The translations under genes were made by a program, and so were the position numbers. A DNA stretch of 64,000 bases from Eledone cirrhosa (Eukaryota), in NCBI GenBank assembly GCA_964016885.1, contig OZ024740.1:217186001-217250000 (forward strand), read 5' to 3'. The notes beneath the pieces are model-generated. The model had not been told where the DNA came from and searched no databases. It worked only from the letters and a program-made list of their open reading frames with translations. Within the stretch, counting starts at the first letter, position 1. Every line of letters starts with the position of its first letter. This document shows, piece by piece, positions 3,951-63,464 of this stretch.

Positions 3951-4028
<78 letters not shown>

Positions 4029-4149
4029 GGAGGTGAGTTTTATTGTAGTACAATAAAGCAATGCAGATATCGGATGAGAAGCACTCTACAGTTTGTGGGA
4101 CTGGAGTATGCATAATATAAGATCAAAAGATGGTTAAAGGAGTTCCATA

Positions 4150-4220
4150 TATTTTATTATGCGCATTTCAAAAACAAACATCATCAAGCAATAATATTTG
4201 CGTTTTCATCAGATAAAACA
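4150..4220 (-). ncRNA. Type I hammerhead ribozyme motif (mirror arm)
   Basis: Exact reverse complement of 4392-4462. Confidence 0.8.
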
Positions 4221-4391
4221 GGAGAACATGATATGAAGGCTAAAAAAAACACTTGTTGATAGTGCAGTTTTAAATCAACATATGAAAAGTGGTTTTAGAT
4301 ATCACACATCAATCTAAAACCACTTTTCATATGTTGATTTAAAACTGCATTATCAACAAGTGTTTTTTTTAGCCTTCATATCATGTTCTCC

Positions 4392-4462
4392 TGTTTTATC
4401 TGATGAAAACGCAAATATTATTGCTTGATGATGTTTGTTTTTGAAATGCGCATAATAAAATA
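4392..4462 (+). ncRNA. Type I hammerhead ribozyme motif
   Basis: Stem I TGTTTTAT/ATAAAATA; core CTGATGA (4400-4406); long stem II; GAAA (4443-4446); palindromic stem III TGCGCA; UH = TA (4453-4454). Confidence 0.8.
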
Positions 4463-4492
4463 TATGGAACTCCTTTAACCATCTTTTGATCT

Positions 4493-4529
<37 letters not shown>

Positions 4530-13652: not shown

Positions 13653-14056
13653 GTAAGTTGTTAATGGAAATTATGTCAAATTGTCTTCAAATGTCAAACT
13701 AACTGGGTTAGGTCTTGAAAGGACTCATGACTAACCATAGCATTATGCCTCAAGGAGGTGAATCGGCAGAGTCATTAGAACATCAGATAGAATGCTTTGT
13801 GGTATTCATTTCAGCTCTCTGCTTTCTGAGTTCAAACTCTGCTGAATTCAACTTTGTCTTTCATCCTTTCAAGGTTTGTTTAAAGAATCCTAGCATGATT
13901 ATAAATTTATTCAGTTTTAATAACAAACATATGTGTATGTGTATGTGTTTAGGAAGTGGTATGTCTATGTCAGTTTGTGTATCCATAAAGTTATCAATCA
14001 ATTAGTTTATTCTGTAATTGATGGCTAATTATAGTTCTTTTGTTTTATTATTTCAG

Positions 14057-14654
14057 TGAAGAGGAATTGTTGTTGAGCATCAAACAAGAACCACCATGTG
14101 AGATTGAAAGTAATGGTATGAATAATCACTCCTCCTCCTCATCAGCATCACTATTGCGCCCATCAGAACTGGCTATGTTGGGTTCATCTGCAGATACAGG
14201 CCTAATGTCTGCTACAGAAATATCTGCAATGGTTGGTGGAGCAACAAAAGGCTCAGTTATGGTTGGTGGATCATCAAAAAGCTCAGTAATGTGTAACCAT
14301 GCTAGTAACCACTCAAATATGTCACCATCAATTCTTTGTCCAACCTCAAACACTTCACTATTGTGTTCTACTGGTGACGGTCCATCGAGCATGTGCTCGG
14401 TATCGAGTGAAGCAGGCATGATTAGTCAGTCACCTGATCCATGTCCATCACCTACAGACAGTGTAGCAACAACTGAAGCTAAAGATAGTGCAGTTGATTT
14501 CTCAATGGTTGATGAAGCAGCAGCACCACTAGCACCACCACCATCATCATCACCACCACCATCACCAATGTCTGCATCTGATAGACTAGAATCTAATCTA
14601 CGAAATCCTTCATCTTCTGCTAGTCATTTGGCTTCACATTCCCCAGACGCATAA
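14057..14654 (+). CDS. Terminal coding exon, Ser/Pro-rich low-complexity C-terminus of a probable transcriptional regulator
   Basis: TTTCAG acceptor; open frame EEELLLSIKQEPPCEIES...SHSPDA*; followed by a long AT-rich, microsatellite-rich putative 3' UTR. Confidence 0.75.
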
Positions 14655-23850: not shown

Positions 23851-24997
23851 TATATTTGTGTGTGTATGTTCATCCATATGTGCATGTAGATATGGATGTG
23901 TATACATAAATACTCATTCTTTTGTAAACATATATTGTTATATATATATATATATATATTTTATATAAATACAGAGAGAGAGAGTTAAGAAAATTAACAA
24001 ATAAAGGACAAAACAACAAAACGAAAAACAATTTTTCAAGGGAAAACCATAAAAATTATTTTTTTAAATTAAATATACAAACAAAGGACACAGAACTCCA
24101 TGGTCATCGGCCGTTGAGACAAAAGACAGAACAGTAATCTTTAGCCGTTAAACTACAAAACATGTACAATTATGTGTGGCTTTAGGGAAAATGTCTGGTA
24201 CCTCATATAGCATGTGAAACAATGAAAAAGAAAACAAGAAAAAAGCAAGAAGAATAAAGTAATATATTGTGTAAGAAAATGTAAACCATTACAATAAATG
24301 GAGGACTAGGGAAAAGCACGTTCTCCACATTAGTAGATAAACTTAAGAAAATTATGTACATGTATATACATATACAGAAAACCCGCCTTCCCTACGTGCA
24401 AAGTTAACCTACAGTTAGTAGGCCCCTCTTAACCAAATATCCCAATCCACCACCCCTACTCCATCCTCCCACTCCCACCTACACCACCCTTTCTCTGTAA
24501 AGTTATGTTGGCACCACGAGATCCTGTAGGTGTCACAAAAAAAAAAAACAGACAGTCCATGCTGCTATGTGGCCGTGTAGGAAACATGGTAAAAAGGTTC
24601 CCAGTCCACACTGTAAATTTGGTTGGTGTTACGAAGGGCATCCAGCCATAGAAAACCTGCCAGATACAGTTCTATACGAGCAAGACACAGTAACCCGGTC
24701 AATCTTGCCTCAAGTGGGACTATTCCCATCTAACCCATGCTAGTGTAGAAGATAGACGTTAAACGATGATGATAATGACAACGATGATATATATTGTTTT
24801 ACTTTGGGAGGGTCATGTTGCCAATAAAAAGAAATCTTGCGAAACAAATTCATATATATATATATATATGTAGGAGGTGAGTTTTATTGTAGTACAATAA
24901 TGCAATGCAGATATCAGGTAAGTAGCACTCTACAGTTTGTAGGACTGGAGTATAAATAATAATATATAAGATCAAAAGATGGTTAAAAGAGTTCCAT

Positions 24998-25070
24998 CTA
25001 TTTTATTATGCGCATTTCAAAAACAAATATCATCATGCAATAACATTTGCGTTTTCGTCAGATAAAATAG
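24998..25070 (-). ncRNA. Type I hammerhead ribozyme motif (mirror arm)
   Basis: Reverse complement of 25187-25259. Confidence 0.8.
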
Positions 25071-25186
25071 GGAGACATGATATGAAGGTTAAAACACACT
25101 TGTGAATAGTGCAGTTTTAAATCAACATATGTTGATTTAAAACTGCACTATTCACAAGTGTGTTTTAACCTTCATATCATGTCTCC

Positions 25187-25259
25187 CTATTTTATCTGAC
25201 GAAAACGCAAATGTTATTGCATGATGATATTTGTTTTTGAAATGCGCATAATAAAATAG
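25187..25259 (+). ncRNA. Type I hammerhead ribozyme motif
   Basis: Stem I CTATTTTAT/ATAAAATAG (9 bp); core CTGACGA; long stem II; GAAA; TGCGCA; TA cleavage site at 25249-25250. Confidence 0.8.
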
Positions 25260-26195
25260 ATGGAACTCTTTTAACCATCTTTTGATCTTATAAATTATTA
25301 TATATATATGTATGTACATATAGAGGTATATGAGTTATCGTTTTCTGTTACTGTAGTTTAAGAGTTAAAGTAACCCTTATCAAGGACTATCTCAGCATAC
25401 AGTGGTTTTTGACTCAACAAAAGGGTTGTTGCAGGTCGATTATAGGGTGATCCTTAGATGGTTCAGTAATCCATGGAATAAATACAAATAGGTAAAGATT
25501 TATGCAGTACACTGTACAATAGGATTTATTTCAAGCATTTACATATATTTCATTGATATGTATGGAAACCCTTCTGGAAATCACTAATCCCAATAATCTA
25601 TTGGGAAAAATCAAATTCAAATATGGTGACAAATTTTTTTTAACTCCAGGCACATCAAATTATCAAAACAGAATAAGGACTTGTATTGGTTAGGATCTTA
25701 TAAGAAATGTGTAGAAGGGAAAAGGAGGAGACATAAGAAAGAAAGACATAAAAGAGAAAGAAAAACACTAAGTAAGCATATACAGAGTGTTCAAAGTAAA
25801 TATTAGATGTTGTTGTCTGCTTGTTGAGGATGGATATTCCAGCTGGCCGCAGTTCATCAGAGTTAATAGAATTAGCTGCTGATTGATTGAAAGTGTTTTG
25901 TTGTATTGACCAATGGCTATTTTGTCCTAGAATCTTGCTGACATTCACCATTGATTTCTATGGATCTGAAAAGGTATTAATAATTTTATAGGTAAGCAAT
26001 TGCTATTGTTTTGTGGCCATTGTAATAAGACTTAGCTTAATGTTCTTTTATATTATACCTTTCATGTGCACTTTAACATTACACTAAGTCTTATTAGAAA
26101 TGGCCATAAAACAATGGCAATTTCTTAGTAGTAGTAATGGTGGTGGTGATGGTAGTATTAGTATCAGTGGTGGTGGTGGTAATAGAAGGAGAAGG

Positions 26196-26705: not shown

Positions 26706-26949
26706 TGTCACGGGAGGAAACAATAACATAACTGATGATGTCAGAGGTGTGTGACAAAAGAATTCTGAGAAACTATTTATATCTATATCATCAACTGTTG
26801 GTCAATCAATGATAAACATTGATTGCCAATTGAATTAATTATAAAAATACAAAATATACTGAAGCAAAAACCAACCCAAACCAAACAGCGAGTGTGTTTA
26901 TATTTCTGGCAATATTATAATAACATGGCCCACCCTAAATATAATAATT

Positions 26950-28596
26950 AAGGAAATGAAAAGTGGTAAGACCACTGGACCATCAGGGATAGTTGCTGAG
27001 ATGCTAAAGGCATCAGGAGAAGTAGGAACTAAACTGGTTGCACTCATAGTCAATCAAGCTATATATGGTTGAGTCATACCCAAATACAGGTGCAACAGTA
27101 TTCTTGTAAATTGCTTCAAAAGTAAAGGGGATGCTCTGGAGAGGAGCAATTATAGGGGCATAAAACTAATGGATCAGGTTATGAAAGTGACAGAAAGAAT
27201 GCAACACAACTAATTAGAGAAAGAGTCAAATTAGATGAGATGCAGTTTGGTTTTGTGCCTGGGAAAAGTACAACAGGTGCTTCTTAGTGAGAGGTTCTTA
27301 GAGAAGAATACTATAAGCTACTATACTTAGCTTTTGTTGACCTAGAGAAGGCCTTTGATAGAGTACCCCGATCTGTCATCTGGTGGTCCATAAGGAAACT
27401 AGGTGTAGAGGAATGGCTGGTGAGGACAGTGCAAGCTATGTACAGAGGTTCTGTCAGTAAAGTGAGGGTAGGAATGGAGTTTAGTGAGAAATTCCAGATA
27501 CAACTAAGAGTGCATCAGGGTTCGGTCCTCAGCCTACTCTTATTCATTATAGTTCTCCAAGCCATAACCGAGGAGTTTATCACTGGCTGCCCATCGGAAT
27601 TTCTCTATGCTGACGATCTAGCACTTATAGCAGAATCAGTAGAGGAGCTAGAGAATAAATTCTAGCAATGGAAACAGCAGTTGGAATCAAGAGGACTGAG
27701 AGTGAACCCAGCAAAGACTAAAGTGTTGATAAGTAGGAAAGAAGATAAAACTCTGATTCCATCAGAGAAATGGCCATGTTTGATATGTAGAAAATGAGTT
27801 GGCATAAATTCTATAGAATGTACACAATGCAGATCTTGGGTACACAAGAGGTGAAGTGGGATAGCAGGCAAACTAACAGGAAGGGAAAACTTCATATGCT
27901 GTAGATGTTCAAGGAAATTTGATAGTTGATAGTGTCAGCACATTTTTCAAATGCAGGTAGGATCTATACAGGTGGTTGATATCTTCCGATATCTAGGTGA
28001 TCAGATTAGCAAAGGAGGAGGATGCTCTGAGGTGATAGTATCTAGAATAAGGACAGGATGGAAGAAGTTTAGGGAACTGCTTACTCTGTTGACAAGGAGG
28101 GGTTTCTCCCTGTGAACGAAATATTGGTTATATGATGCTTGTGTGAGATGCATGATGCTGCATGGTAGTGAACATGGGCAGCAACTGTGGAGGATATGCA
28201 ACAGCTGGAGAGAAATGAAGCAAGCATGCTCCGATGGATGTGCAATGTCAACGTGCGTGAACAACCAAGCATGGGCGAGTTGAGAGTGAAACTGTGTATT
28301 AGAGGGATAAACTGTAGTGTGTGGGAGAGAATATTGCATTGGTATCGCCATGTGATGCACATGGAAGATGACTGTTGGGTGAATAAGTGCCAAGAAATCC
28401 CGGTGGAAGGAAGACGCAGTAGAGGAAGACCACAAAAAAAATAGGCAAACGTGGTGAGAGCTGACCTCAGATTGCTGAAGCTCAGAGAGGAGATGACAAG
28501 GTACTGTGATGAATGGAGAGATGCTCTGCTGAAGAGGACCCGACCCACCTTTGCAAGCAGGAAAAGTGGACTTGAAATGATGGTGATGATGATGAT
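26950..28596 (+). mobile_element. RTE-clade LINE, 5'-truncated
   Basis: NYRGIKLMDQ, FVDLEKAFDRVP, YADD and RILHWYRH motifs; (GAT)n tail; closely similar to 47505-49110. Confidence 0.92.
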
Positions 28597-30069: not shown

Positions 30070-31089
30070 TTTCTTTATTGGCCACAAGGGCTGACATCAA
30101 GAAAAACAGACGGAACAGGACGGTACGATGTGGGTTTTGTGCGTGTAAATATTTTTATTATTTATATAAGAAAAGAAAAAAGACATAAAACATATATATA
30201 TATATATAAACAATAAAATGAAAATTGAAACAATGAAAAATTCCCCAATAGGGGGGAAACCTCCGAGGGTTACACGTGGCGAAAACCACACAAAAGACCA
30301 CGGCCACCCTGACTACCAGGGCAAGCGCCCTCTCTCAATTTTTCCATCTCTCAAACTACAGACGTATATTCAGAGTGGTCCCGTTCACTCGGACCATTCT
30401 CGCTACATTCACCCACCTTTCAACAAACTTGCTAGAAAGCAGCACTTGCCTCTCCACCCTGATTTTCCTCTTCAAGTGAAACTTGAAAAAGTTAATCAGG
30501 GATTCGCCGAAGAGGAAAGTGTTTGTCTTTAATCCTTTTAACCTTGTCCACCACACAATCTCTTTCGCCATGGCCACCAGGCAGATGAAAACCGCCTGCC
30601 CTTCCTCCTCAAAGGAAGACGGCGAGACCATCTGCACAATGGACTCAGTCGACAACCGGATCAGTCCCACACGTGACAGCAACTGTTCGACATAGCTCCA
30701 CAAGTCAGCAATGCTCGGGCACTGAACGAGTGCGTGCACAACGGTTTCGTTGCTATGCGCGCATCTCGGACAGGCTCGGCTGACGGCACTTCCGTGCCTG
30801 TAGAGCTTATCTCGAACCGGCAGCGCTCCCCGGTAGCACTGCCAGGCCAGGGATTTTTGGACGTTATCCATAGGCCCCGGGCTGAAAGTTCTCCGGAAGA
30901 GAGCAAGCAGCTGATCTTCTTCGACGCCCAGGATCTCTCCGAGAACGTCGTCGCTCTTCCCCTCCACTAGTCCTCTATAGAACGCCGAGGTGGATGTTCC
31001 ACCGATACTGGTGCCCAACTGGGAGAGGGCAGTGAGTGCCTGGAGACATTCCAGTTTCCAAGCGCTATCCCTCGGTCTTTTTCTGACCC

Positions 31090-31090
<1 letters not shown>
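30068..31090 (-). mobile_element. Tx1/L1-like LINE 3' fragment inserted in (TAA)n
   Basis: ORF 30356-31135 contains zf-RVT-like ACPRCAHSNETVVHALVQC; 3' end AATAAAGAAATC(ATT)n; (TAA)n on both sides. Confidence 0.85.
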
Positions 31091-31123
<33 letters not shown>

Positions 31124-31157
31124 ATAATAATACATACAACAGTAATAATAATAATAA

Positions 31158-31589
31158 TGATTTCATTTATTAGCCACCAGGGCCGACATGTAGGGGACAA
31201 TACAAAGACAGGGACAGTGGGGGTTTACAATAAGGTGGAGTAAAAGTGCACAATGGCAAGACTAATTTAACAATGAAAATATAAAAATATAAAATAAACT
31301 ATGCATAAATATAACAAAATAAATTCCCCAATAGAGGGTGTACGACCCTGGGGTGCTTCAGGTACCCCACCAATCCTGAACCACCCTGCGTTTCTAGGGC
31401 ACCCAGGGAGAGCACCCCTCTCCTCAAGTTAGCCAGCCTATAGGCGCATGGTCAGAGTAGGCCCATTCACACGAGCCATTCTCGCCACATTCACCCACCT
31501 TTTAGCAATTGTACTGGAGGGCAGCACTTCTCTCTCCACCCTCACCTTCCTTTCCAGGTGAAACTTGAATAAGTTGATGAGGGATTGGC

Positions 31590-32759: not shown

Positions 32760-35700
32760 TTGACACAAAAATCACCGGGAGTGATGAAATCACCGGTGGT
32801 TATGTAACCATACATTCACCAATCCTCGATAAGAGTGTTTAAATGTCGAACCTAAACAGTTCGAATAACGGTGAAGTGGAGACTAGAATGTCATGTGACA
32901 GACTCTCACCCAGCAGGTGCTCCCTGGCTCAGCAGCAGGGACCTGGCTGTCAACCAAATACTGCTGGTGTCGGAGGAAGAAGAAGAAGGAAAGGGACCAG
33001 AACCAACTGGACGAAAGAATTGAATAGAACTGTTATGCAATGTTACCTGAAAAGTAATCCCAAGGAGAAAGGCTATAGGAAACGGATGCATAACATCTGG
33101 AACGAGATTGGTCTATTTAAATTAGATGAACAAAAATTGGCCGGGCAGGTTCGGGTAATAAGAACTAATGGGTGGATAAGCGAGCTGGAACTGGAGGAAC
33201 TGAGCAGAGAGATTAGCCTGGAAATGGAGAGTGGAGTATGCCAGGCAAACGAGCCAGTGGGAAATGAAGGTGAAGAGGTTGAGAGAACGGAGGAACCATC
33301 CGAAGCAGACAATGATCTGAATGCTGAAATAAATAATACCTGGAACAAAGATACGGCCATTGAGGAGATGAATGCTGACAAGATTTGGTTGATATCCTAA
33401 ACTTAGTGGTATGTGAATTGAATAATGATAGTGGGAAACCTATGAACCTAAGATTTGTAGACAGGAAAAAGTTAAAAGAAACAACAGCTAAGGTAAACAA
33501 AGTCATCCCATACCTTGAAGCTAGGAGCCTTCACCAGTGCAACAATATCCTCAAAGCAACAGCAAATGCGGTGAGGAAATTACTTGGTATAAAAGCGAGA
33601 GGAAACAACAAACAAGAAAGATCAGAGCCTTGGTGGAAGAAACGACTGAGTGGTCAAATCAGAGAAATGAGAAATGACATTGGAAAGCTTGAGTCCCTAC
33701 TGAATGGGACACTAAAAAACATAGACACTAAAAATAGATTGGAAATAAAGTACAAAACTAGGAGGAAAAAGTTAAATATTATCATAGAGGAACTGAAGCA
33801 ACGCATTGTAGCAAAGAGTGCAAAAATTAGGCGATACGAGAGCAGAGTCAGTCGGTATAGACAGAACCGCATGTTTAACAACAAACAGAAGATGCTGTTT
33901 GGACAGCTTGAGGGGAAAGAAAGAGGCAACGACTTGATCCCTGAGGCGGAACAAACTAAAACATTCTGGAGAGGAATATGGGAGCAGGATGTTAAACATA
34001 ATGACCAGGCAGTGTGGATTGAGACAGTACAGAAGGAGATTAGTGAACAGGCACACCAACAAACTGACTTGAGTATCACAGTTGAAACTCTTAAGGGGCA
34101 GGCCAAAAAACTAACCAACTGGAAATCACCAAGCCCAGATGGTGTGCAGGGGTATTGGATTAAAAATATAACATCCCTCCACCCGAAACTGACAACCATG
34201 TTCAATGACTGCTTGATGTCAGGTGAGGTACCAGAGTGGTTGACAAAAGGTACCACAGTTCTGGTAATGAAGGACCGAATCAAGGGTAATGATGTTACCA
34301 ACTATAGACCTATCACATGTCTGTCCGTAATGTGGAAACTGTTGACAAGCATTATGTCTGAGGAAATCTACCATCACCTCCACACAAACAACTTGTTACC
34401 GGACGAACAGAAAGGATGCCGAAAGAAGTCCCGTGGTACAAAGGACCAGTTACTTATTCATAAGATGGTAATGAGGAATTGCAAGAGGAGACACACTGGT
34501 CTTGCCATGGGATGGATAGACTACAAAAGGCATTTGACATGGTGCCTCATTCTTGGATCACCAAAAGCCTAGAGATCTTCAAGGTGGCAGATAACATCAG
34601 ACAGTTGTTGGGCAAAAGTATGAAGTCCTGGGAAACAGAGTTAACATCAGCTGGAGAATCCTTGGGAGGCGTGAAGATCAAGAGAGGTATCTTCCAGGGA
34701 GATAGTCTGCCCCCTCTGTTGTTTGCCCTTGCTCTGATGCCTCTGACCATTATACTGCGAAAAGTGAGAGCAGGATACAAGTTGGGAAAGGGAGAGCTTA
34801 CCATCAATCACCTCCTCTTCATGGACGATCTTAAGCTCTTCGGGAAGAGTGAGAAGGAGTTGGATGTGCTTGTTGACACTGTCCGTATTTTCAGCAATGA
34901 TATATGTATGCAATTTGGTATTAGTAAGTGTGGAGTCCTTGTGATGAAGAGGGGGTAAATTGAGCAGAAGCAACGGAATCCAGGTACCAACAGGTGAGAT
35001 GATAAAGGAAATTGTCACTGAAGAAGGATACAAGTATTTGGGTGTTCTGGAGGCTGATGACATCAAGAACAAAAAAATGAAGGAATTGATAAGAACTGAA
35101 TACATTCGGAGAGTAAGGAGCGTATTAAAGTCACATCTGAACAGTAGGAATGCCATAAGTGCAGTAAATTCCCGAGCTGTGTCTATTATTAGGTACAGTG
35201 CGGGAATTCTGAGATGGAATGTTGCTGAACAAAAAGAAATGGATAGGAAGACTAGGAAGCTATTGACTATCTACAACATGTTCCACAAGAGCAATGATAT
35301 CGATAGACTCTACTTAAGGAGATCTGAGGGTGGAAGAGGTCTTATCAGCATAGAGGACTGTGTTCAGATGGAGAAAAACAACCTACACAAATACGTGACT
35401 GATAGTAAGGAGCCAATGCTCAGAACTGTACTGAAGGAGAGGACAATAGACCAGGGGGTGTCCAAGGAGGAAATAACAACAAGGAGAAAGAGCAGCCTTC
35501 AGGAAAAATCCCTTCATAGTACCTTCTTTGAGAAAACTGAATTCAGAGATCCACAGACATGGAACTGGTTGAAAAGAGGAGACCTTAAAAAGGCTACAGA
35601 AGGAATGTTAATGGCTGCGCAAGAGCAGGCCCTCAAAACGAAGTGGTTGAAACACCATATTTACAAGGAGGAGGCTAGCCCACTGTGCAGGATCTGTGGA

Positions 35701-36320
35701 GAGAGAGAGGAGACTGTGGCTCACATTGTATCCGAGTGTAAACACCTAGCCCAGACTCACTATAAGGGCTGGAGACATGATGTGATGGGCAGGGTGATCC
35801 ACTGGCACCTATGCAGAGTAAACAATTTACCACATTCTGAGAAGTGGTATGAGCATAAGCCAGAGTCGGTGATAGAAAACGATCAGGTGAAGGTGCTGAA
35901 ACTGGACAAAAAACTGGAACACAATAGACCTGACCTGGTGGTTTTGGACAAAGAAAAAAATCGTGCCTGATTGTGGATGTGGCCTGCCCATTCGACACGA
36001 GAGTGCAAGAGAAGGAGAGGGAGAAAATTAACCGATACCAGGACTTAAAGTGGGAGGTAAAAAGGATTTGGAACTGCCATGAAGTCAAAGTGGTCCCGAT
36101 TGTCATAGGCGCACTAGGTACTATCTCAAAAAGTTTTCAGGGATGGTTAAAGAAAATTGGCCCCTTCACGCTTTTTGGAACGCTTCAAAAGACATGCTTG
36201 CTGGGAACAGCAAGAACCCTCCGATACGTCCTGAATATCTGAGGCTGCAGGTTGTGGCTTGATATTCATTTCAACAAACTTTCAAGTTAACTAACATCAA
36301 TGACTGAGACTCAAAGAACA
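32760..36320 (+). mobile_element. R4/Dong-like non-LTR retrotransposon with restriction-like endonuclease, near full length, frameshifted
   Basis: N-terminal RTNWT..GYRKRMHNIW; RT motifs NYRPITCL, GIFQGDSL, LLFMDDLKL; CCHC CRICGEREETVAHIVSEC; RPDLVVLD..DVACPFD..EKINRYQDL; ends in (TAA)n. Confidence 0.9.
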
Positions 36321-36974: not shown

Positions 36975-39880
36975 TATTATGTACAGTGCTCAGGTGCACT
37001 ACAACTCATCAAAGGTGCATGTATAGTACATAGAATAATATACAAATGTCACGGAAATGAATAGTGTATGAGTCATGATATACATGTGTGCATGTGTATG
37101 GAGGGGGAATATTAGGTGTAGTGTTGGCGAATCTCAGAAAGCATGGAGGTTTTAAAGGATGCAGTGTCTCGGCAGCTAACAACTGATGCAGGTAGTTTGT
37201 TCCATGCTTCAACAACTCTGAGCGTGAAAAAATGTTTCCGAAAGTTATGGGAGCTGTGCTGTTTTCTGACTTTGTGGGCATGCCCACGTGTGTTAGATAC
37301 ATGGAAATCAAAAAGGTACTCAGGATTGTTGTTTGCAAGATGGTTAGTAATTTTGTGGGTGTTTACCAACTCAGTTGCCAGACGTCGGAGCTTCAATGTA
37401 TCGATGCCCAGGGAAGCAAGGCGTTCAGAGTATGGTAGACGCCTGATGGAGGGTATTCGCTTGGTTGCACGTCCCTGAACAGTTTCTAGGCAGTCAATGT
37501 TCTGAGCAAGATAGGGGTTCCAGACTGGTGATGCAAATTCTAAGTGTGGCCACACCATAGCTATATACAGCTTAAAATAGATAGCTGGAGAGCAGCTGAC
37601 AAAGGTCTTTCTGAGTGATGCTAAGACACCCTCAGCCTTCTTGACAATTTTAGAGACATGCTTCATCCAACGCAAATCGCTGCTGACCGTAATGCCCAGG
37701 TCACATTAACAAGAAGACTTCTTGATATTAGTGTTGTGGAGGGAGTATGTGGACGCTGGGTTTTTACTCCCAAAATGCATGGTGGTGCACTTGTCCACTG
37801 CTAGCTTGAGTTGCCAGTCTGAGATCCATTGTTGCATTATGTCCAGGTCAGATTGCAGGAAAGATCTATAGTGTTCAGGATCTGTCCTTTTTATCTCAAG
37901 GTACAGCTTGATGTCATCTGCGTACTTCAGTACTATGGCATTCTTTAAGTTGGCATCTATGTCATTAATATATGCAACAAACAAAAGGGCCAAAACAGAT
38001 CCCTGTGGTATACCAGATGACATCTCATATGGTGAGGAATGCTGTCCTAGAACCGTGACTACCTCTCTTCGACTGAGAATGAAGGACTTTAACCAGTTAA
38101 AAAGATTATCCTTCACACCCATTGCAGAGAGTTTTGCCATAAGTCTTTTGTGTAGCACAGAATTGAAAGCTTTAGCAAAGTCAAGGTAAACAACATCCAC
38201 CCATGAGCCACCATCAGTGATCCGGTGATGTCTACAAGAAACTCGATAAGTTGATCACAGCAGCTGGAGTTAGGGATAAATCCAAATTGCGAGGGCCGGA
38301 AAAGACTGAGAATTCCAGAAGTTCCAAAGCGTTTCTCTGACACAGGATTCCATCAGTTTGGCGATGCAGCTAGTAAGACTGACTGGACGATAGTTCACAG
38401 GTGATGTGCGGTCACCTTTTTGAACAGAGGAATTACACTGGCAGTTTTTAACTGTTCTGGAGTAGCACCGTTGTTCAGACTGAATTGGAAGAAGCGTGAT
38501 AGCTGGTACAGAAGGAAGTACCCACCACGTTTGAGAAGCAGGTACGTAACACCACCAAGACCAGAAGAGGCATGGTTGCGTTTATTTTTAAGGTGATATC
38601 GGAGCATTGCAGGTGTAAATTCCATAGTTGTAATAGAATCCGATGTCAGAGGTGGTGGAGACGGTACACTCTGGTCTTCAATAGTGAAAATGCCTGCATA
38701 GCATTCAGCAATGAGCTCCGCGCATTCCTTGGGGTCGTCAGTAACCTGGCTTGTGTGGGGATTGCGAAGAGAACCAACTGGGGAGTGAGGCCTCTGCTTT
38801 GAGTGAACATACTTCCAGAACACCTTACTGTCAGGGCTGGTTGCTATGCGCTGCTCAAATTGAAGCACTCCCTTTTTTGTCACCTGTTTGAGATGGTTGG
38901 ATGATTTATTTCGCTTCTTCCTATTGATATCTGATTTATGCAGTTTGTACTCACGTTCAGCATTACAACATTCTTTTCTGGCAAGACGGACTGCTGCAGT
39001 CTTCCAAATTGCACTTTTGGGATGTTTTTTCTGTTTACATGGCATCGATGCTGCACATGCTGTCCATATTGAGCTCAGGATGTTCTGGAGTACAGTGTTC
39101 ACATCTCCAGAGTCGTAGAACTCAAGCCAGTTTGGACGTTGCACCTCGGTGCAGTAACAGTTCCAGTCTGCTTTATTCCAGTCAAAGTGAGCAGTTTGGA
39201 GATGGTTGTGGTTTTTGTTACTGCCCATGAGGGATAGATTGGCAATGATCATAGCATGATCAGTCACCTAAAGGTTCCTCAGTAGTAACACTAATAACCG
39301 ATTCAGGAGTAGTGGTGAAGAGTAGGTCCAAAGTGTTGTCACCTCTTGTTGGGGGGGGGGGGGGGTGACTACTTGGGACCAATTCGAGTCCAGCACTAGC
39401 TCAAGGAAGTCATTTGCACTTGGCGGCCATCGAAAGGTTTCCCAGCCAATCTCAATGTGATTGAAGTCCCCTGCAATAAAAACATAAGTGGCCGTTTTCC
39501 TGACAGCAACTCTGATGATATCACAAAGTTGAGTGTCCTGGTGGTAATTTGGGGGACGGTAAACGACTCCAAGTAGCAGTGTTGTCATGGTCATACGTAT
39601 ATCGCAGAAAAATACTTCCTGCTGCGATTGGTTCAAATCAACACAAGGAATTGCCGAAACATTTGAGCAAACGTAGACCATTACACCACCACCACAACGA
39701 ATAATGCAGTCTTTACGAAACAAGTTGTAGCCAGTTATGCTGAAAACCCCATCACAGAGTAAAGAATGTGCCCATGTTTCCGCGATGTAATGAAGTCAGG
39801 GTTGATACTTTTGATGTAGGAGTCAAAATGATGAATGTTATTGCATAGACTACGTGCATTCAAGGACAACAATTTGATCT
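36975..39880 (-). mobile_element. CR1-clade LINE ORF2 (APE + RT), degenerate
   Basis: GGGV..YV, GVVYRPP, AGDFN; YLDFAKAF, PQGSVL, YADD; PHLEFASPVWNP, TRGH, FFTLRVVEAWNKLP. Confidence 0.92.
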
Positions 39881-42940: not shown

Positions 42941-44127
42941 TTACACTCATTGATCCATTTTGCACTAACTCTGCATCAAGCACCCTCACCTAAATATTAA
43001 CCAATCAAGGATCCAATACAGCTATCTGATGGATGAGTATTGTATAGTGCCAAAAACGAAACCAATCAGTTTAGCAGAAAGTTTCCAGACAAGAAACACG
43101 CATATTTTGCTATCCTCAAACACGTTTACACATGGCATGAAATATAACTAATCCGAGATGGCTAGGTTTCATCTTCTAACTGGATATACGAAATCCATTA
43201 TGTCTTGACAACAACATGAGGTAACATTATGTTATTCACAGACACACTTTGTACACTGTTCCATATCAGAATGTATTTCCTTCGTCACATTCACAAACAG
43301 TATTGAAAATATGTTCTTCGGCAAATAAAAATGTTTTGTTCATAATATTTCAACTAGCGATTGATCTACTCTACGCACGACCACCATAAATTAATGACCA
43401 GCTCAACACAAGTATTGGTAGAGCGTCAGACACCATGCTTTGCAGTATTGTTATGGTCCTTTGCATTCTAAGTTCAAATCCTGCCGAGGTTAACTTCGAC
43501 TTTCATACTTACTAATTCGATAAAATAAAGTACCAGTAATGGACTGCCGTAATGGATTTGTGCCGAAAAATAGAAACACTATTAATGTGCAATAAGAGCA
43601 AAATATAACGACATTGCTCAATTATTTTATCTAATGTTGTAATAACACAAGGAAATGTTGTTTGTGTATTTTTTTTAATATTTGCTCATAGGCTTTTACA
43701 ATTTCGCTCAGCCAACAACTATTAAAAAGTGAGTTGCTTAAGATAACAATTTAATCACAAATTGTTGCTATCTTTTAATACACTCCAACAAGTCATCAAA
43801 TTATGTACAATAAAAACAAATCTTATTAATTTGCTCAGGGAATATAAAGAAAATGTATATACACTGATAATTGCAATTGTATGTAAATATTTTGTTTTTG
43901 TATTGTTTATTTTATGTTTTCTATTATGTATAATATATTGATTTAATATTGATTGCTTTTTGTAGTTGTTTATATTAAAAGTCTGAAAATATTTTTATAC
44001 ATCCTACACTAATATTTATAAGATAATTTATAATAACAATTACATAATCTAATTACATTACAACGATAATTTATTATTAATATATATCCTGTTTAACTAG
44101 AGTTATTACAAGCGTTGCCTTAAAAAA

Positions 44128-45098
44128 ATATTAAACTAGACATGAAAAATGCGCAAGCTCAAAAGTGCCACAGAATGTTATAATAAACCTTCAAAAGTGT
44201 GGGACTAGAGTTGTTGCTAAAAAATATTGTAATCATTATATATCGTACATTCTGTGGCATCCTTTATAAAAATAGCTTAAACCAACGAAGCCTTTATTTT
44301 TACGCTATTTCACTTAGTTAATTCTTAGAGTGTAACATATAAAAATAAATACATCTATGTTTAATGTAATAACAGCTATAAATAATTACGTAATATTATT
44401 ATCATATACTCATAGTAACAAAATAATTGTGTTGAAAATTAATATGATGCTTATATGAACGATCAAATCTATAATGATAATTTCTTAAATATACTAATAG
44501 TAAAATAATTTAGTTATCTATTGTTACATTTTCATAGAACTATAATATTAACAATCGTATTGCATTATCAAATTTTTATCACTACAAACTTTCATATTGG
44601 AATTACCTTAAGCCACTTATTATTACTTCGCTTTCATACTTTTACAGCTGTAGATATTGCGCTGTATCTTATATCTAATATCAATATCTCATGGTAATTT
44701 GCATGCAGTGTAAAATAGGTTTATTAATAACTTTAATATGAAATGTATTATACAGGGCTGCGGAGTCGGCCAAAAATTGACTGGCTCCAACTCAGGATCC
44801 GATACTCCATTATTTCCTAAATTTCAGCTCCGCAGCTCTGTTATTATATTAATTAATTTATTTTATAGTTGTAAATCATATTTTTATATGTTACACTCTA
44901 AGAATTAACTAAGTGAAATAGCGTAAAAATAAAGGCTTCGTTGGTTTAAGCTATTTTTATAAAGGATGCCACAGAATGTACGATATATAATGATTACAAT
45001 ATTTTTTAGCAACAACTCTAGTCCCACACTTTTGAAGGTTTATTATAACATTCTGTGGCACTTTTGAGCTTGCGCATTTTTCATGTCTAGTTTAATAT
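44128..45098. repeat. 220-bp inverted duplication (arms 44128-44347 and 44879-45098)
   Basis: Arms are reverse complements, with no mismatch found by eye. Confidence 0.9.
44753..44840. mobile_element. 88-bp hAT-like MITE
   Basis: TIRs CAGGGCTGCGGAG and CTCCGCAGCTCTG; flanks GTATTATA and TTATTATA (7/8 TSD). Confidence 0.7.
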
Positions 45099-45461
45099 GT
45101 TACATTTGTATTGGTCTATTCACACCACCATGGGCTATAAAACGCATGTCTTTTCTCTATAACATGCGTGTTTTCTTAATTATCTGATATATTTTTAGAA
45201 ATGTTGATCGTATTGATAGGCATATGCTGATGAGCCACATCTAACAATATATATTCTTCACTTTTTATAGCAAAACATAATTAGATGGTTAGTACACTTT
45301 AATATATTCTTTTAATTGATTTATATTTACCATTCCTTCCATAGTTAATATGTTCATCACTCTGGCAGTTTTTGATCCCCTATGATTGAACACATAGAGA
45401 TATGTGTACTCCTCTCTATATGCTGATTTATAAAGAGCCCGGGACCTATTCCTTGAGCTGA

Positions 45462-47504: not shown

Positions 47505-49110
47505 TCATCATCATCATCATCATTTTACATCCGCTTTTCCTTGCTTGCAAGGGTGGGAGGGGTATTCTTCAGCACAGCATCTCTTCATTCGTCACGGTCC
47601 TTCGTCATCTCCTCTGTGAGCTTCAGTGATCTGAGGTCAGCTCTCATCACCTCCACCCATGATTTTCGTGGTCTTCCTCTACTGCATCTTCATTCCACTG
47701 GGATTTCTTGGCACTTCTTCACCCAGTAATCATCCTCCATGCGCATCATATGTCCATACCAATGCAGTCTTCTCTCCCATACACTACACTTTATTCTTCT
47801 TATACACAGTTTTACTCTCAACTCGTCCATGCTTGGTCATTCATGCACATTGACATTGCACATCTCTCGGAGCATGCTTGCTTCATTTCTCTCCAGCTGT
47901 CGCATATTCCCCCGCAGTTGCTGCCCATGTGTCCCTACCATGCAGCATTGTGCATCTCATACAGGCATCATATTACCAGCCTTTCGTTGCTAATCTGATC
48001 ACCTAGGTATCAGAAGCTATCAACCACCTCTATAGATCCTACCTGCATTTGAGAAATGAATCTATCACTGCCACTTCTACTATCAAATTTCCCTGAACAT
48101 CTACTGCATATGTAGTTTTCCCTACCTGTTAGTTTGCCTGCTATTCCACTACTCCTCTTGTCTACCCAAGATCTGCATTGTGTACATTCTATAGAATTAA
48201 TGCCAACTCATTTTCTACATATCAAACATGGTCATTTCCCTGATGGAATCAGAGTTTTGTCCTCTTTCCTACTTATCAACACTTTAGTCTTAGCTAGGTT
48301 TACTCTCAGTCCTCTTGATTCCAACTGCTCTTTCCATAGCCAGAATTTATTCTCTAGCTCCTCTACTGATTCTGCTATAAGTACTAGATGGTTAGCATAG
48401 AGAAATTCCGATGGGCAGTCAGTCTTAAACTCCTCTGTTATGGCTTGGAGAACTATAATGAATAAGAGTAGGCTGAGGACCGAACCCTGATGCACTCCTA
48501 GTTGTATCTGGAATTCCTCACTAAACTCCATTCCTACTCTCACTTTACTGACAGAACCTCTGTGCATAGCTTGCACTGTCCTCACCAGCTATTCCTCTAC
48601 ACCTAATTTCCTTATGGACCACCAGATGACAGATCGGGGTACTCTATCAAAGGCCTTCTCTAGGTCAACAAAAGCTAAGTATAGTGGCTTATTCTTCTCT
48701 AAGAACCTCTCATGTAGTTGTCTCACTAAGTAGAGGGCACCTGTTGTACTTTTCCCAGGCATAAGACTAAACTGCATCTCATCTAATTTGACTCTTTCTC
48801 TAATTAGTTGTGCTGCATTCTTTCTGTCACTTTCATAACCTGATCCATTAGTTTTATGCCCCTATAATTGCTCCTCTCCAGAGCATCTCCTTTACCTTTG
48901 TAGCAATTTATAAGAATACTGCTGCGCCAGTCTTTGGGTATGACTTCGCCATATATACCTTGATTGACTATGCTTGCAACCAGTTTAGTTCCTATTTCTC
49001 CTGATGCCTTCAGCATCTCAGCAACTATCCCTGACGGTCCAGTGGCCTTACGACTTTTCATTTCCATAATTGCCTTTTTGACCCTATAGTCGTCAATCTC
49101 AATAGCTGTG
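47505..49110 (-). mobile_element. RTE-clade LINE, 5'-truncated
   Basis: KATGPSG, NYRGIKLMDQ, FVDLEKAFDRVP and QGSVLS motifs; (GAT)n tail. Confidence 0.92.
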
Positions 49111-49373: not shown

Positions 49374-50275
49374 GTATTAAATTATGTCAGGGACTTTTAA
49401 CGTATGACACCGGTGTCTTTTAGGAGAGTGAAGTATTACCAACGACACCGACTTCGCGGCATGTTAATTATAACTTTAATTAATATTATTATATCTTTTG
49501 TAGTAATTATTTCATGTTAAGTTGAATGTTAGTATTTTGTGGATAACATAAGGTGAGCTACATGTTTCAGGGTAGGTGTTCCATCATCTATATGATTAAA
49601 TATTTCATTTTATGAGAAACTACGCTACATCGTGAATTGGTTGTTCCACATTTGACAAGACAGTGAAAAATAGGTTTAAATCACCAACATCTGAACAATT
49701 AGCTTTCTTAACTTTACACTTAGACTTGAAATATAAAATACGTATTATTTGTAACACAGCAGATATTGTGTACTTTTCTACACTCCGTGGTAATCAATCC
49801 TTGTTTATTAGGTCAACTCATCTATACGGAAATAAACACACGATCATATAGACCGCCACCTCACCCCCGAATATATATATACACACACACATTTTCTTTC
49901 CCGACATCAGTCTTACACATTTGTATCAACTGAGAGTTCCATTACAATTTGTAGAAGAACGACTATTTTAACAGAACATCTGCATTCAGTCATTTATAGA
50001 CAATATATATGTTATACTCCATAGCGACCATTAACGATAGTCACATATTTTAAACAAAGAAATAGAAGTATTTTTCTCTACAACAATATATATGTACCAC
50101 TTGGAGAGGACTCACTTTGCTACAAGAATTCTAGTGGTATGTAGAAAATATATCTACATTGCATATTTTCCACACATGTAAGCATAGTTCTATGATATCT
50201 AAGACAAGAAATTGAATTGTAATATATTATAAACACAGATATTTCTCAACTTTTACGAATTCTTCAAGAATTACT

Positions 50276-51520
50276 ATGGAAGACGTTATACACTTGGACA
50301 TTTCTAACACACCTGTTTCTACCAATATAGATACAGTTACACAGACATACAGTGATGAAAAAACTTTACTTAGTGAAACATGTACTGAACAAGGATCTTT
50401 ACACAGAAATATTCCTGTATATAGCTGTGAGATATGTAGGAAAACTTTCTCTTCAAAAGATGAAGTATCCACACACGAAGACACACACACTAAAGACAAA
50501 CCCTTCCACTGTCAAATATGTGAGAAATCGTTCACTAAGAAATCTCATCTTGTTTACCATATACGTATTCACACTGAAGAAAAACCCTATGACTGTGAAA
50601 TATGTGGTAAATCTTTTGTCACTAACAATGATTTAACAGAGCACAAGAGGACACACACTGAAAAGAAACCCTACCACTGTGAAATATGTGGGAATTCTTT
50701 TGTTTGTAACAGTGCCTTAACAGTACATACAAGAATACACACTGGAGAGAAACCCTACCACTGTGAAATATGTGGTAAATCTTTTGTTCGTAACAGTCAC
50801 TTAATATCACATACAAGAATTCACACAGGAGAGAAACCCTTCCATTGTGAAATATGTGATAAATCTTTTGTCACTAACAGTGATTTAACGGAGCACACGA
50901 GAACACACACTGGAGAAAAGCCATATCACTGTAAAATATGTGGGAAGTCTTTTGTTCGTAACGGCGGCTTAATACAACATACAAGAATACATACTGGAGA
51001 AAAACCCTACCACTGTGAAATATGTGATAAATCTTTTGTCGCTAACAATGATTTAATAGTACATATGAGTAGACACACTGGAGAGAGACCTTTCCACTGT
51101 GAAATATGTGGTAAGTCTTTTGTTCGCAATAGTCACTTAATATCACATACAAAAATACACACTGGAGAAAAACCCTACCACTGTGAAATATGTGGAAAAT
51201 CTTTTGTCACTAACAGTAATTTATCAACACACAAAAGAAAACACACTGGAGAGAAACCTTTCCACTGTGAAATATGTGGTAAATCTTTTTTCCATAACTG
51301 TGATTTAACAAATCATAAAAGATTACACACTGGGGAAAAACCATATCAATGTGAAGTATGTGAGAAATCTTTCACTCAGAATGCTAATCTTATTAGCCAC
51401 ATTCGAAGTCACACTGGAGAGAAACCATACCACTGTGAAATATGTGGCAAATCTTTTGTTCGTAACAGTCTCTTAATATCACATAAAAAAATACACACTG
51501 GCGAGAAACCTTACCACTGA
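50276..51520 (+). CDS. C2H2 (Kruppel-type) zinc-finger protein, 13 tandem fingers
   Basis: 414-aa ORF with 13 CxxC-x12-HxxxH units and TGEKP linkers. Confidence 0.93.
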
Positions 51521-63145: not shown

Positions 63146-63464
63146 CTGAAATAGGGCTGGGACCCCTTAAAATATGTTGGTGACCCCTTTTTTTATATAG
63201 TTTCGTACATAAATATTTTTTTCTTAGCCACCATAAATATATTTAATGTATCATTGTCTATTGCTAATGACTTTATTTGACATGGGATAGGGACCCTAGA
63301 AATTACTTCACCCTGGTTATGTTTTTGAAGAGATACAATGTCTATATAGTTTGGTTTGTTGTCACAATAACCAATAATTCTACCCTCACCAAACTTCCCT
63401 ATTTGTACATAAGGGTGGTTTAATGATATGATTCTAACTGTTTTTGATAGGTTTGTAGTAAGAT

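What the first reader, a model, noticed from the sequence alone, without database searches (positions are those of the whole stretch)
24870..25300. Second copy folds back at a different axis and shows structure-preserving changes in the ribozyme
Seen: same left boundary and nearly the same right boundary as the 4026 copy, but the turn-around is at an internal CATATG palindrome with no loop. Copy-specific variants (CTGACGA vs CTGATGA, stem II changes) are mirrored in both arms of each copy. Between copies, stem II pairs change U-G to U-A and A-U to G-U, stem I changes G-U to A-U, and the other changes fall in the loop and the variable core position. Inference: the inverted arm is generated anew at each insertion (snap-back or template switch during reverse transcription), and the RNA fold is under selection in the source elements.
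Basis: partly seen in the sequence, partly recalled or inferred. Interest (0 to 1): 0.75.

Follow-up and report, generated by a model that had tools for sequence, protein, structure and literature searches.

The report
Hairpin axis marks retroelement RNA start
This mirror-image repeat is one stub of a very abundant, likely Penelope-type jumping element carrying a predicted self-cutting RNA motif, and its turning point is the family's commonest inner end, likely the capped start of the element's RNA, where two likely separately made DNA copies were joined head to head rather than one copy folding back.

Summary
24870-25301 is a head-to-head insertion in (TA)n: a long arm with an 86-nt tail, a short arm, a type I hammerhead in each, no loop at CATATG. 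The 4026 copy has the same outer ends and a different centre. Public-run contigs show a very large family and 55 listed junctions; 17 of the 23 distinct ones shown end at one site (25126-25130). A G that the template lacks sits next to that site in 8 of 13 records, as expected for a copied RNA cap. So CATATG is likely the RNA's 5' end, and the loop-less axis arises when both copies run to it and anneal by ATAT. Twin priming by a Penelope-like enzyme fits best (0.6). The stem changes are real but one-sided; 3 of 3 is not significant, while family-wide A/G changes do cluster opposite U in stems. The architecture is published for Penelope-like elements; no ORF was linked and no empty site could be tested.

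The parts
24852..24869 (.). (AT)9 tract, left part of the target microsatellite of copy 2
   Evidence: sequence
24870..25130 (-). Long arm of copy 2; reads as the element RNA on the minus strand from +1 (25130) to the long end (+261, 24870)
24870..24955 (-). 86-nt tail present in the long arm only (sequence between the two fixed outer ends)
   Evidence: (TA)n loose ends at the short end in hundreds of reads
24926..24952 (-). Predicted small bulged hairpin with an A/C-rich 7-nt loop, starting 4-5 nt beyond the short end; weak on its own (z -1.1 and -1.8 in the two copies)
   Evidence: a hairpin of similar shape seen by eye near the 3' end of Hydra-2_Amil
24999..25069 (-). Type I hammerhead motif in the long arm (core starts at 25061)
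25126..25131 (.). Loop-less fold-back axis CATATG; A25127 (and its mirror 25130) is the family's commonest inner arm end, inferred RNA 5' end (+1)
25127..25301 (+). Short arm of copy 2; element RNA sense on the plus strand from +1 to the short end
25127..25182 (+). Predicted 5'-terminal hairpin that begins exactly at +1 (z -2.35 in copy 2, -0.87 in copy 1)
25188..25258 (+). Type I hammerhead motif in the short arm: 8-bp stem I, core CUGACGA at 25196, 16-position stem II with one mismatch and 4-nt loop, GAA, 8-nt palindromic stem III, predicted cut after A25250
   Evidence: no Rfam hammerhead match
25300..25309 (.). (AT)5 tract, right part of the target microsatellite of copy 2
   Evidence: sequence
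3954..4025 (.). (AT)36 tract left of copy 1
   Evidence: sequence
4026..4300 (-). Long arm of copy 1 (tail 4026-4111; hammerhead 4150-4220; runs 17 nt upstream of +1 at 4283)
4301..4500 (+). Short arm of copy 1 including the 11-nt apparent loop 4301-4311, which is family sequence; runs 28 nt upstream of +1; hammerhead 4392-4462
4499..4526 (.). (AT)14 tract right of copy 1
   Evidence: sequence

Best explanation
Both hairpins are stub insertions of a high-copy, hammerhead-bearing repeat family, likely Penelope-type, and each was likely built from two separately primed cDNAs of one likely capped RNA, joined head to head. Inferred steps: a Penelope-like RT/GIY-YIG protein cuts both strands of a (TA)n tract; each cut end primes reverse transcription at one of two fixed sites on the RNA, 86 nt apart (the short and long outer ends); each cDNA runs towards the 5' end and stops at the cap (+1, A25127, often adding a C), near the base of hammerhead stem II, or at random; the two cDNA 3' ends anneal by 1-4 nt and are filled in. 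Copy 2 is the case in which both cDNAs reached +1: their ends are self-complementary ATAT, which gives a perfect palindrome with no loop. Copy 1 came from a longer RNA, its two cDNAs stopping 17 and 28 nt upstream of +1 and joining by 2 nt. Arms share variants because they were copied from the same source RNA. The stubs are likely dead ends: any transcript across them is predicted to be one long duplex, not a ribozyme.
For: Shown: fixed long end in 2 of 2 window copies and fixed short end family-wide ((TA)n loose ends before 4112 in all 4 runs; 297 and 239 reads in X10 and X11, plus 197 and 276 before 4115). Shown: 17 of 23 distinct junctions displayed have one end within 25126-25130 or its immediate mirror (uniform-chance P about 1e-17, inflated because recurrent junctions are listed first); the reference would allow matches through 25126/25131, yet 13 records stop one base short, so the pile-up is not the edge of the reference. 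Shown: G next to +1 (C on the other strand) in 8 of 13 such records, P about 0.001 at 19% G, and in 5 of the 6 whose intervening letters are given; X1 has no G>C variant at 2% or more on the copy 1 arm. Untemplated G as a mark of a copied cap is established for L1 and SVA (PMC4859970). Shown: in copy 1 the arm that reaches further 5' lacks the tail, and the arm with the tail lacks those 11 nt. Shown: no displayed junction has the partner end predicted by the best self-priming hairpin. Literature: the purified Penelope-like protein PAc cuts and extends both target strands and starts at two internal RNA sites that bound the tail (PMC11167929); inverted 5'-truncated copy, one-sided tail and (TA)n preference are typical of these elements (PMC8557442).
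Against: No RT/endonuclease ORF is linked to this family; the three frames of both long arms are broken by stops and no whole genome is held. The strongest argument against snap-back rests on one locus (copy 1), which a later deletion at the palindrome centre could also give. Short contigs show inner junctions but not which outer end each arm has, so the 6 of 23 junctions whose partner arm lies wholly in the tail fit either model. Only 23 of 55 junctions were displayed; 7 of the 13 cap records are marked 'between: not known'; in 5 of the 8 G cases the G can also be read as the partner arm's own base (a 1-nt microhomology), and only 3 are untemplated by either arm. The tail (86 nt) is longer than the 30-40 nt described. 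Summed contig depth on either side of the short end gave opposite ratios in different runs and decides nothing. No RNA data on the start site.
Confidence: 0.6

Rival explanations
1. Snap-back or self-priming (first reader; also the published reading): one strand folds back at a palindrome or microhomology and copies itself, the second strand then jumping to the TA target at the AT-rich short end.
For: Arkhipova 2013 reads palindromes at inverted junctions as self-priming (PMC3846280, passages). A first strand that runs to +1 and loops back to an internal site also gives 'one end at +1, other end variable', as seen. The short end lies in AT-rich sequence that could anneal to (TA)n. A full-length cDNA can form a -6.3 kcal/mol hairpin that pairs its last five bases.
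Against: Copy 1 cannot be made from either arm alone. The product of the best hairpin (partner end +47 to +52) is not among the 23 junctions shown. A loop-less turn at +1 would need one base pair closing a 2-nt loop; the end has no predicted hairpin but does self-dimerise.
Confidence: 0.22
2. The arms look alike mainly because of events after insertion: older palindromes whose centres were trimmed by deletion and whose arms were homogenised by gene conversion (or by assembly polishing).
For: Copy 2's tail carries alleles that are rare in X1 (24916 and 24918, about 99.8% other letter), and both copies share a letter at 4201/25207 that is a minority in X1, so they may be older than the main burst, yet arms differ at 1 of 189 and 1 of 173 sites.
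Against: Does not explain fixed short and long outer ends, the pile-up of inner ends at +1 or the extra G. The CUGACGA allele of copy 2 also occurs in other contigs and reads (X1 depth 721 in 5 contigs; about 300 reads in each of X10 and X11), so it need not be private.
Confidence: 0.1
3. The family is a non-coding retrozyme-like RNA (tandem or circular) that borrows a Penelope-like enzyme, not the pLTR of a coding element; the insertion chemistry could still be twin priming. This rivals the identity of the source, not the mechanism.
For: Stem III is an 8-nt perfect palindrome suited to a dimer, unlike the Hydra motifs listed in File S2, which all show a 1-3 nt loop III; no ORF seen; retrozymes are reported as non-autonomous derivatives of pLTRs (10.64898/2026.07.22.740005).
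Against: No tandem unit in the window and no back-joint from 3' end to 5' end among the joints shown; only 1 of 23 junctions ends at the ribozyme cut site, 17 at +1, which points to a linear capped RNA.
Confidence: 0.3
4. A DNA-based fold-back element or MITE whose arms are terminal inverted repeats.
For: Long near-perfect inverted arms and a TA target.
Against: Unequal arms, variable centres, fixed unequal outer ends, a hammerhead motif in each arm and G at the inner end.
Confidence: 0.03
5. On the stem changes only: they reflect A-to-I editing of double-stranded stems in source RNAs, fixed by reverse transcription, rather than selection on the ribozyme.
For: All visible X1 variants at paired positions are A/G opposite U (4 of 23 paired purines against 1 of 90 others, Fisher P=0.006; the fifth is opposite U in the predicted 5' hairpin, noticed after the fact). 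The shortage of C/T changes in stems is not significant alone (0 of 23 against 13 of 138, P=0.22).
Against: The catalytic core is identical in both copies apart from position 7 and shows no visible X1 variant at 2% or more (26 of 28 such variants visible); rarer stem variants U-G to C-G also keep pairing (9 of 10 listed paired-site variants keep it, P=0.05). Direction of change is not known.
Confidence: 0.3

Closest known systems
Insertions of endonuclease-positive Penelope-like elements with an inverted 5'-truncated copy and a one-sided tail (Craig et al. 2021, PMC8557442; Arkhipova et al. 2013, PMC3846280)
   Same: Head-to-head inverted copy, tail on one arm only, (TA)n target, hammerhead near the 3' end, palindrome at the inverted junction, Inr-like site at the pLTR 5' end.
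   Different: No ORF linked; tail 86 nt rather than 30-40; published mechanism is self-priming, whereas this family's junctions point to two cDNAs and a capped 5' end.
Hammerheads of Penelope-like elements, including opposite-strand pairs 100-700 bp apart in Schistosoma (Cervera and de la Pena 2014, PMC4209133)
   Same: Type I topology, palindromic helix III predicted to work as a dimer, two motifs on opposite strands a few hundred bases apart.
   Different: Stem II is 16 positions (7-8 bp in the schistosome motif), closes with A-U rather than G10.1-C11.1 and has no extra base after A9; activity untested.
Hydra clade of Penelope-like elements, including Hydra-1_Obim (PMC8557442, section 11, Files S1, S2, S7)
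   Same: (TA)n preference, hammerhead about 100 nt from the 3' end; a similarly shaped bulged hairpin near the end of Hydra-2_Amil (by eye).
   Different: Four short motifs of this family are absent from the supplement (long lines are cut); stem II much longer and stem III a loop-less palindrome; clade cannot be assigned without the protein.
PAc (Poseidon of Anolis carolinensis) in vitro reaction (Frangieh et al. 2024, PMC11167929)
   Same: Two internal start sites bounding the tail, both target strands cut and extended, start near an A/C-rich stem-loop, ribozyme cleavage not required.
   Different: That work does not describe how inverted junctions form (parts 1-2 of 4 read); different clade and host.
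Twin priming and cap-derived G of L1/SVA insertions (as reviewed in PMC4859970)
   Same: Second target strand primes a second cDNA giving an inversion; extra G marks a copied cap.
   Different: In L1 the second primer is thought to anneal at variable internal sites (recalled); here both start sites are fixed and it is the inner ends that vary.
Metazoan non-LTR retrozymes (PMC7229834, search listing only; 10.64898/2026.07.22.740005)
   Same: Short, non-coding, type I hammerhead, high copy, related to pLTRs.
   Different: Defined by tandem units; these copies are inverted monomer stubs.

Membership tests
EN+ Penelope-like element | ORF with telomerase-like RT and GIY-YIG endonuclease | not testable with these tools
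   No ORF in the stubs; no genome held; loose ends give at most 30 letters
EN+ Penelope-like element | Type I hammerhead in the pLTR | tested here: met
   Core and three stems in all four arms; cleavage not tested; no Rfam match
EN+ Penelope-like element | Head-to-head inverted 5'-truncated copy | tested here: met
   2 of 2 window copies; 23 distinct junctions shown of 55
EN+ Penelope-like element | Tail at one end only (30-40 bp described) | tested here: inconclusive
   One-sided extension present in 2 of 2 copies with a family-wide short end, but 86 nt long
EN+ Penelope-like element | Direct partial-tandem pLTRs | not testable with these tools
   No full-length copy in the window
Hydra clade | (TA)n target preference | tested here: met
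   Both ends of both copies; (TA)n loose ends at the short end in 4 of 4 runs
Hydra clade | RWK and DKT motifs in RT, CxCX5C linker, no CCHH | not testable with these tools
   No protein linked
Hydra clade | Hammerhead geometry as in the listed members (stem II 3-7 bp, loop III 1-3 nt); typical, not defining | tested here: not met
   16-position stem II and 8-nt palindromic stem III against File S2
Non-LTR retrozyme | Tandem repeat units each with a type I hammerhead | tested here: inconclusive
   No tandem in the window or among joints shown; master copies elsewhere not visible
Non-LTR retrozyme | Circular RNA formed by self-cleavage | not testable with these tools
   No RNA holder listed
Hammerhead ribozyme type I | Conserved core C3-A9, G12-A14, 15.1-16.1 pair and H17 with three helices | tested here: met
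   the ribozyme-shaped monomer is 4-5 kcal/mol above the predicted minimum, the stem III palindrome pairs as a dimer at -10.5 kcal/mol
Hammerhead ribozyme type I | Self-cleavage | not testable with these tools
   1 of 23 junctions begins at the predicted cut (25251): a hint only
MITE or DNA fold-back transposon | Symmetric fixed terminal inverted repeats around a constant centre | tested here: not met
   Unequal arms and variable centres

The most novel reading that the evidence does not exclude
Penelope-like elements make their inverted ends by priming one capped RNA from both cut target strands at two fixed sites, and the junctions keep a record of the RNA template: an extra G where a cDNA copied the cap, a cluster of ends at the base of hammerhead stem II, and rare ends at the ribozyme cut. 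Thousands of such stubs would then map the start site, structure and cleavage rate of the element RNA in the germ line, and would replace the published self-priming model.
Probability: 0.45. Interest if true: 0.7.

Novelty: new member of a known kind. Interest (0 to 1): 0.45.

Why it matters
How Penelope-like elements form their tandem and inverted structures is named as an open task in Craig 2021, and the standing explanation is self-priming. This family gives countable predictions: which outer end goes with which inner end, a capped start at one base, and an extra G beside it. I did not find the twin-priming or cap reading for these elements in the paper searches (open-licence library only), but many earlier notes of this scan propose the same for other families in this genome, so this locus is one more case rather than a unique one. 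The element itself is an ordinary repeat stub.

Tried and rejected
Whole genome: none held, so copies could not be aligned and R-scape-type covariation could not be run. Rfam: 0 matches at gathering score in the window; at E<=10 only hairpin-like miRNA and other models below their thresholds, no hammerhead family. Exact 22-nt motif: 0 matches in viral contigs and metagenome contigs. Gapped motif in prokaryote genomes: 120 loci fetched, about 270 estimated against about 540 expected by chance; best alignment to the element 30 nt at E 0.025: chance. Empty-site test: not possible, the tool skipped the TA tracts 24781-24879 and 25290-25325, and X4, X5, X6 gave no cover on the unique flank. Expression: no RNA holder listed. 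Depth ratio across the short end as a test of arm counts: opposite answers in X1 and X5, dropped. Allele frequencies from the RAD runs X10 and X11 were not used for the main count because about half the molecules end at 4167, likely a restriction site in variant copies. Junctions whose partner arm lies only in the tail were first taken as decisive against snap-back (note) and then set aside, since a looped-back long first strand gives the same inner junction. Assembly artefact: disfavoured because short-read contigs of another data set show the same kind of junction and two pieces cross the axis with 5 and 8 other letters, but neither has 31 letters on both sides, so the copy 2 junction itself was not bridged. 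Earlier findings by place and by sequence gave nothing.

Full report
Observation. The window is AT-rich, microsatellite-rich animal DNA; no whole genome is held. The sequence at 24870-25301 is a head-to-head repeat between (AT)9 and (AT)5. Its arms are perfect over 164 bp around the centre of CATATG (25126-25131) and match at 172 of 173 sites out to 24956/25301. The copy at 4026-4500 has arms matching at 188 of 189 sites and an 11-nt spacer. BLAST finds no third copy in the window. Both copies start at the same base after (TA)n, and both have an 86-nt stretch in the left arm only. Each arm holds a type I hammerhead motif: 8-bp stem I, CUGA(U/C)GA, a 16-position stem II with one mismatch, GAA, an 8-nt palindromic stem III and UA at the predicted cut. 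Rfam has no hammerhead match. The ribozyme-shaped monomer is predicted at -6.7 kcal/mol against minima near -11, while the stem III palindrome pairs as a dimer at -10.5, in line with the dimer model of Cervera and de la Pena (PMC4209133, parts 1-2 of 4 read).

The family. Twelve public runs were listed, nine holding part of the stretch, none on record as RNA; six different runs were laid. In X1, 3373 contigs lie on the 285-base arm, with summed depth of 1e5 to 2e6, against 5-6 for pieces of the unique right flank that match without a difference. The tool warns that this is no copy number; it suggests thousands of copies or more. The family is also in runs labelled organisms B and C. The short end is family-wide: (TA)n loose ends lie before 4112 in all four runs.

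Inner ends. Laid on the copy 2 locus, X1 gave 55 joints; 15 are shown in the joint table and 8 more can be read from the table of intervening letters, 23 distinct in 24 records. All differ, so no single axis was inherited. Seventeen of the 23 have one end within five bases at 25126-25130 or its mirror; the other end lies anywhere from +82 to +231. The list is ranked by support, which favours recurrent ends, so the nominal P of 1e-17 overstates the case. The pile-up is not the edge of the reference: matches could run through 25126 or 25131, but 13 records stop at A25127 or its mirror 25130. In 8 of these 13 the next base is G on the sense strand where the template has C (P about 0.001; 5 of 6 among records with known intervening letters). 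In five of the eight the G can be read as the partner arm's own base, in three it is templated by neither arm. No G>C variant reaches 2% on the copy 1 arm in X1. Untemplated G at 5' junctions is taken as a copied cap for L1 and SVA (PMC4859970, passages). The site lies in an initiator-like context (consensus recalled, from no call) and a predicted hairpin begins exactly there (z -2.35 in copy 2, -0.87 in copy 1). I infer that A25127 is the capped 5' end of the template RNA. A second group of ends lies at +104 to +116, the 3' side and base of stem II, and depth falls across this region in all four runs; one junction begins at +125, the predicted cut. These may be pausing at stem II and a rare cleaved template; a second start site is not excluded.

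Snap-back or two cDNAs. Loose ends behind 4300 in all four runs begin with the reverse complement of copy 1's 11-nt spacer, and X6 shows the same continuation. The spacer is therefore family sequence belonging to the short arm, which reaches 28 nt upstream of +1 while the long arm reaches 17. The short arm lacks the tail and the long arm lacks these 11 nt, so neither can be a copy of the other; they join by a 2-nt overlap. For copy 2, two cDNAs ending at +1 have self-complementary ATAT ends whose annealing gives the observed centre exactly; a fold-back there would need one base pair around a 2-nt loop. A full-length cDNA does have a good self-priming hairpin (-6.3 kcal/mol), but its product, a partner end at +47 to +52, is not among the 23 junctions shown (32 not shown). 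The purified Penelope-like protein PAc cuts and extends both target strands and starts at two internal sites that bound the tail (PMC11167929, parts 1-2 of 4 read). Together this favours twin priming. Against: it leans on one locus, which a later central deletion could mimic; short contigs do not pair inner with outer ends, so the six tail-only junctions fit both models; depth ratios were contradictory; and Arkhipova 2013 argues for self-priming, possibly on an antisense RNA, from such palindromes (PMC3846280, passages).

Selection on the fold. The two copies differ at 22 sites; 6 of 73 in the ribozyme and 16 of 183 outside. The three named changes keep pairing, but 28 of 46 possible transitions would, so three of three has P=0.23; none is two-sided, and a fourth change at the end of stem I pairs in copy 2 only. 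Family data are stronger: of 28 X1 variants at 2% or more, 26 are visible; 4 of 5 A/G variants and 0 of 13 C/T variants lie in stems I and II (Fisher P=0.002), the fifth A/G variant lies opposite U in the predicted 5' hairpin (seen after the fact), and none lies in the core. Of ten paired-site variants listed in any run, nine keep the pair (P=0.05); 34 of 74 rows were not shown. The fold is thus probably real in source RNAs, but an excess of A/G in stems is also what A-to-I editing would leave, and the C/T shortage alone is not significant (P=0.22). Mirrored alleles are expected if both arms come from one RNA; later arm conversion cannot be excluded, as the empty-site test failed for technical reasons.

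Comparison with what is known. Inverted 5'-truncated copies, one-sided tails and (TA)n targets are described for Penelope-like elements (PMC8557442: passages, section 11, supplement searches and parts 2 and 52 of 59), and so are hammerhead pairs on opposite strands 100-700 bp apart. The stubs work like such insertions. Membership is not shown, since no ORF is linked. Hydra is the nearest clade by target and by a similarly shaped end hairpin seen by eye, but the hammerhead geometry differs from all members listed. A non-coding retrozyme-like source is possible (10.64898/2026.07.22.740005, part 1 of 5 and passages; its supplements were not seen; PMC7229834 seen as a listing only). Searches for Penelope with twin priming, template switch, transcription start, octopus or recent mechanism papers returned no paper whose listing or read passages give this reading; the library lacks most subscription papers. 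Earlier notes of this scan on other families prompted the twin-priming test and agree with the result; they are not independent evidence. The cap reading was drawn before I saw the note that proposes it.

Verdict. Real, correctly described, and a new member of a known kind. Interest 0.45.

Noticed in passing
window 24915-24923 and 24875-24882 (+); 4031-4038 (+): Splice-donor-like motifs on the plus strand of the tail; the one at 24915 is a full consensus match (consensus recalled) found in copy 2 only and made of alleles that are rare in the family. Could matter if a plus-strand gene spans the locus; may be chance.
   Followed up: no
window 44125-44347 and 44879-45101: Near-perfect 223-bp inverted repeat around a 531-bp AT-rich spacer, with no hammerhead core in the scans and no target duplication seen by eye.
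   Followed up: partly
window 4163-4167 (reads of X10, X11): About half the RAD molecules end at 4167 and carry a change in stem III, likely a restriction site gained by a few copies; it biases allele counts in these runs.
   Followed up: partly
window 4170-4205 (reads of X10, X11): A diverged subfamily shows several stem II changes, U-G to C-G at 4190 and 4193, and 4205 with 4170, which together would give the canonical G-C closing pair if they co-occur.
   Followed up: no
window 24884-24900 (-) and 4039-4057 (-): A 7-8 bp hairpin containing AATAAA lies just inside the long end (z -2.8 and -4.3).
   Followed up: partly
window 50216-51520 (-): Open frame of 434 aa with tandem C2H2 zinc fingers on an 84-bp repeat.
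   Followed up: partly
window 30356-31162 (-), 32843-35970 (+), 37112-39795 (-): Broken non-LTR retrotransposon remnants; Pfam zf-RVT and RVT_1 hits for two of the three frames tested. None is Penelope-like by these hits.
   Followed up: partly
window 14022-14654 (+), 61029-61892 (-), 62340-63242 (-): Exon-like open frames of 210-300 aa with no Pfam match; whether the two hairpins lie in introns of a gene was not determined.
   Followed up: partly
window 26946-28565 and 47536-49071: Long inverted similarity about 20 kb apart (85-94%), likely two copies of a dispersed repeat.
   Followed up: no
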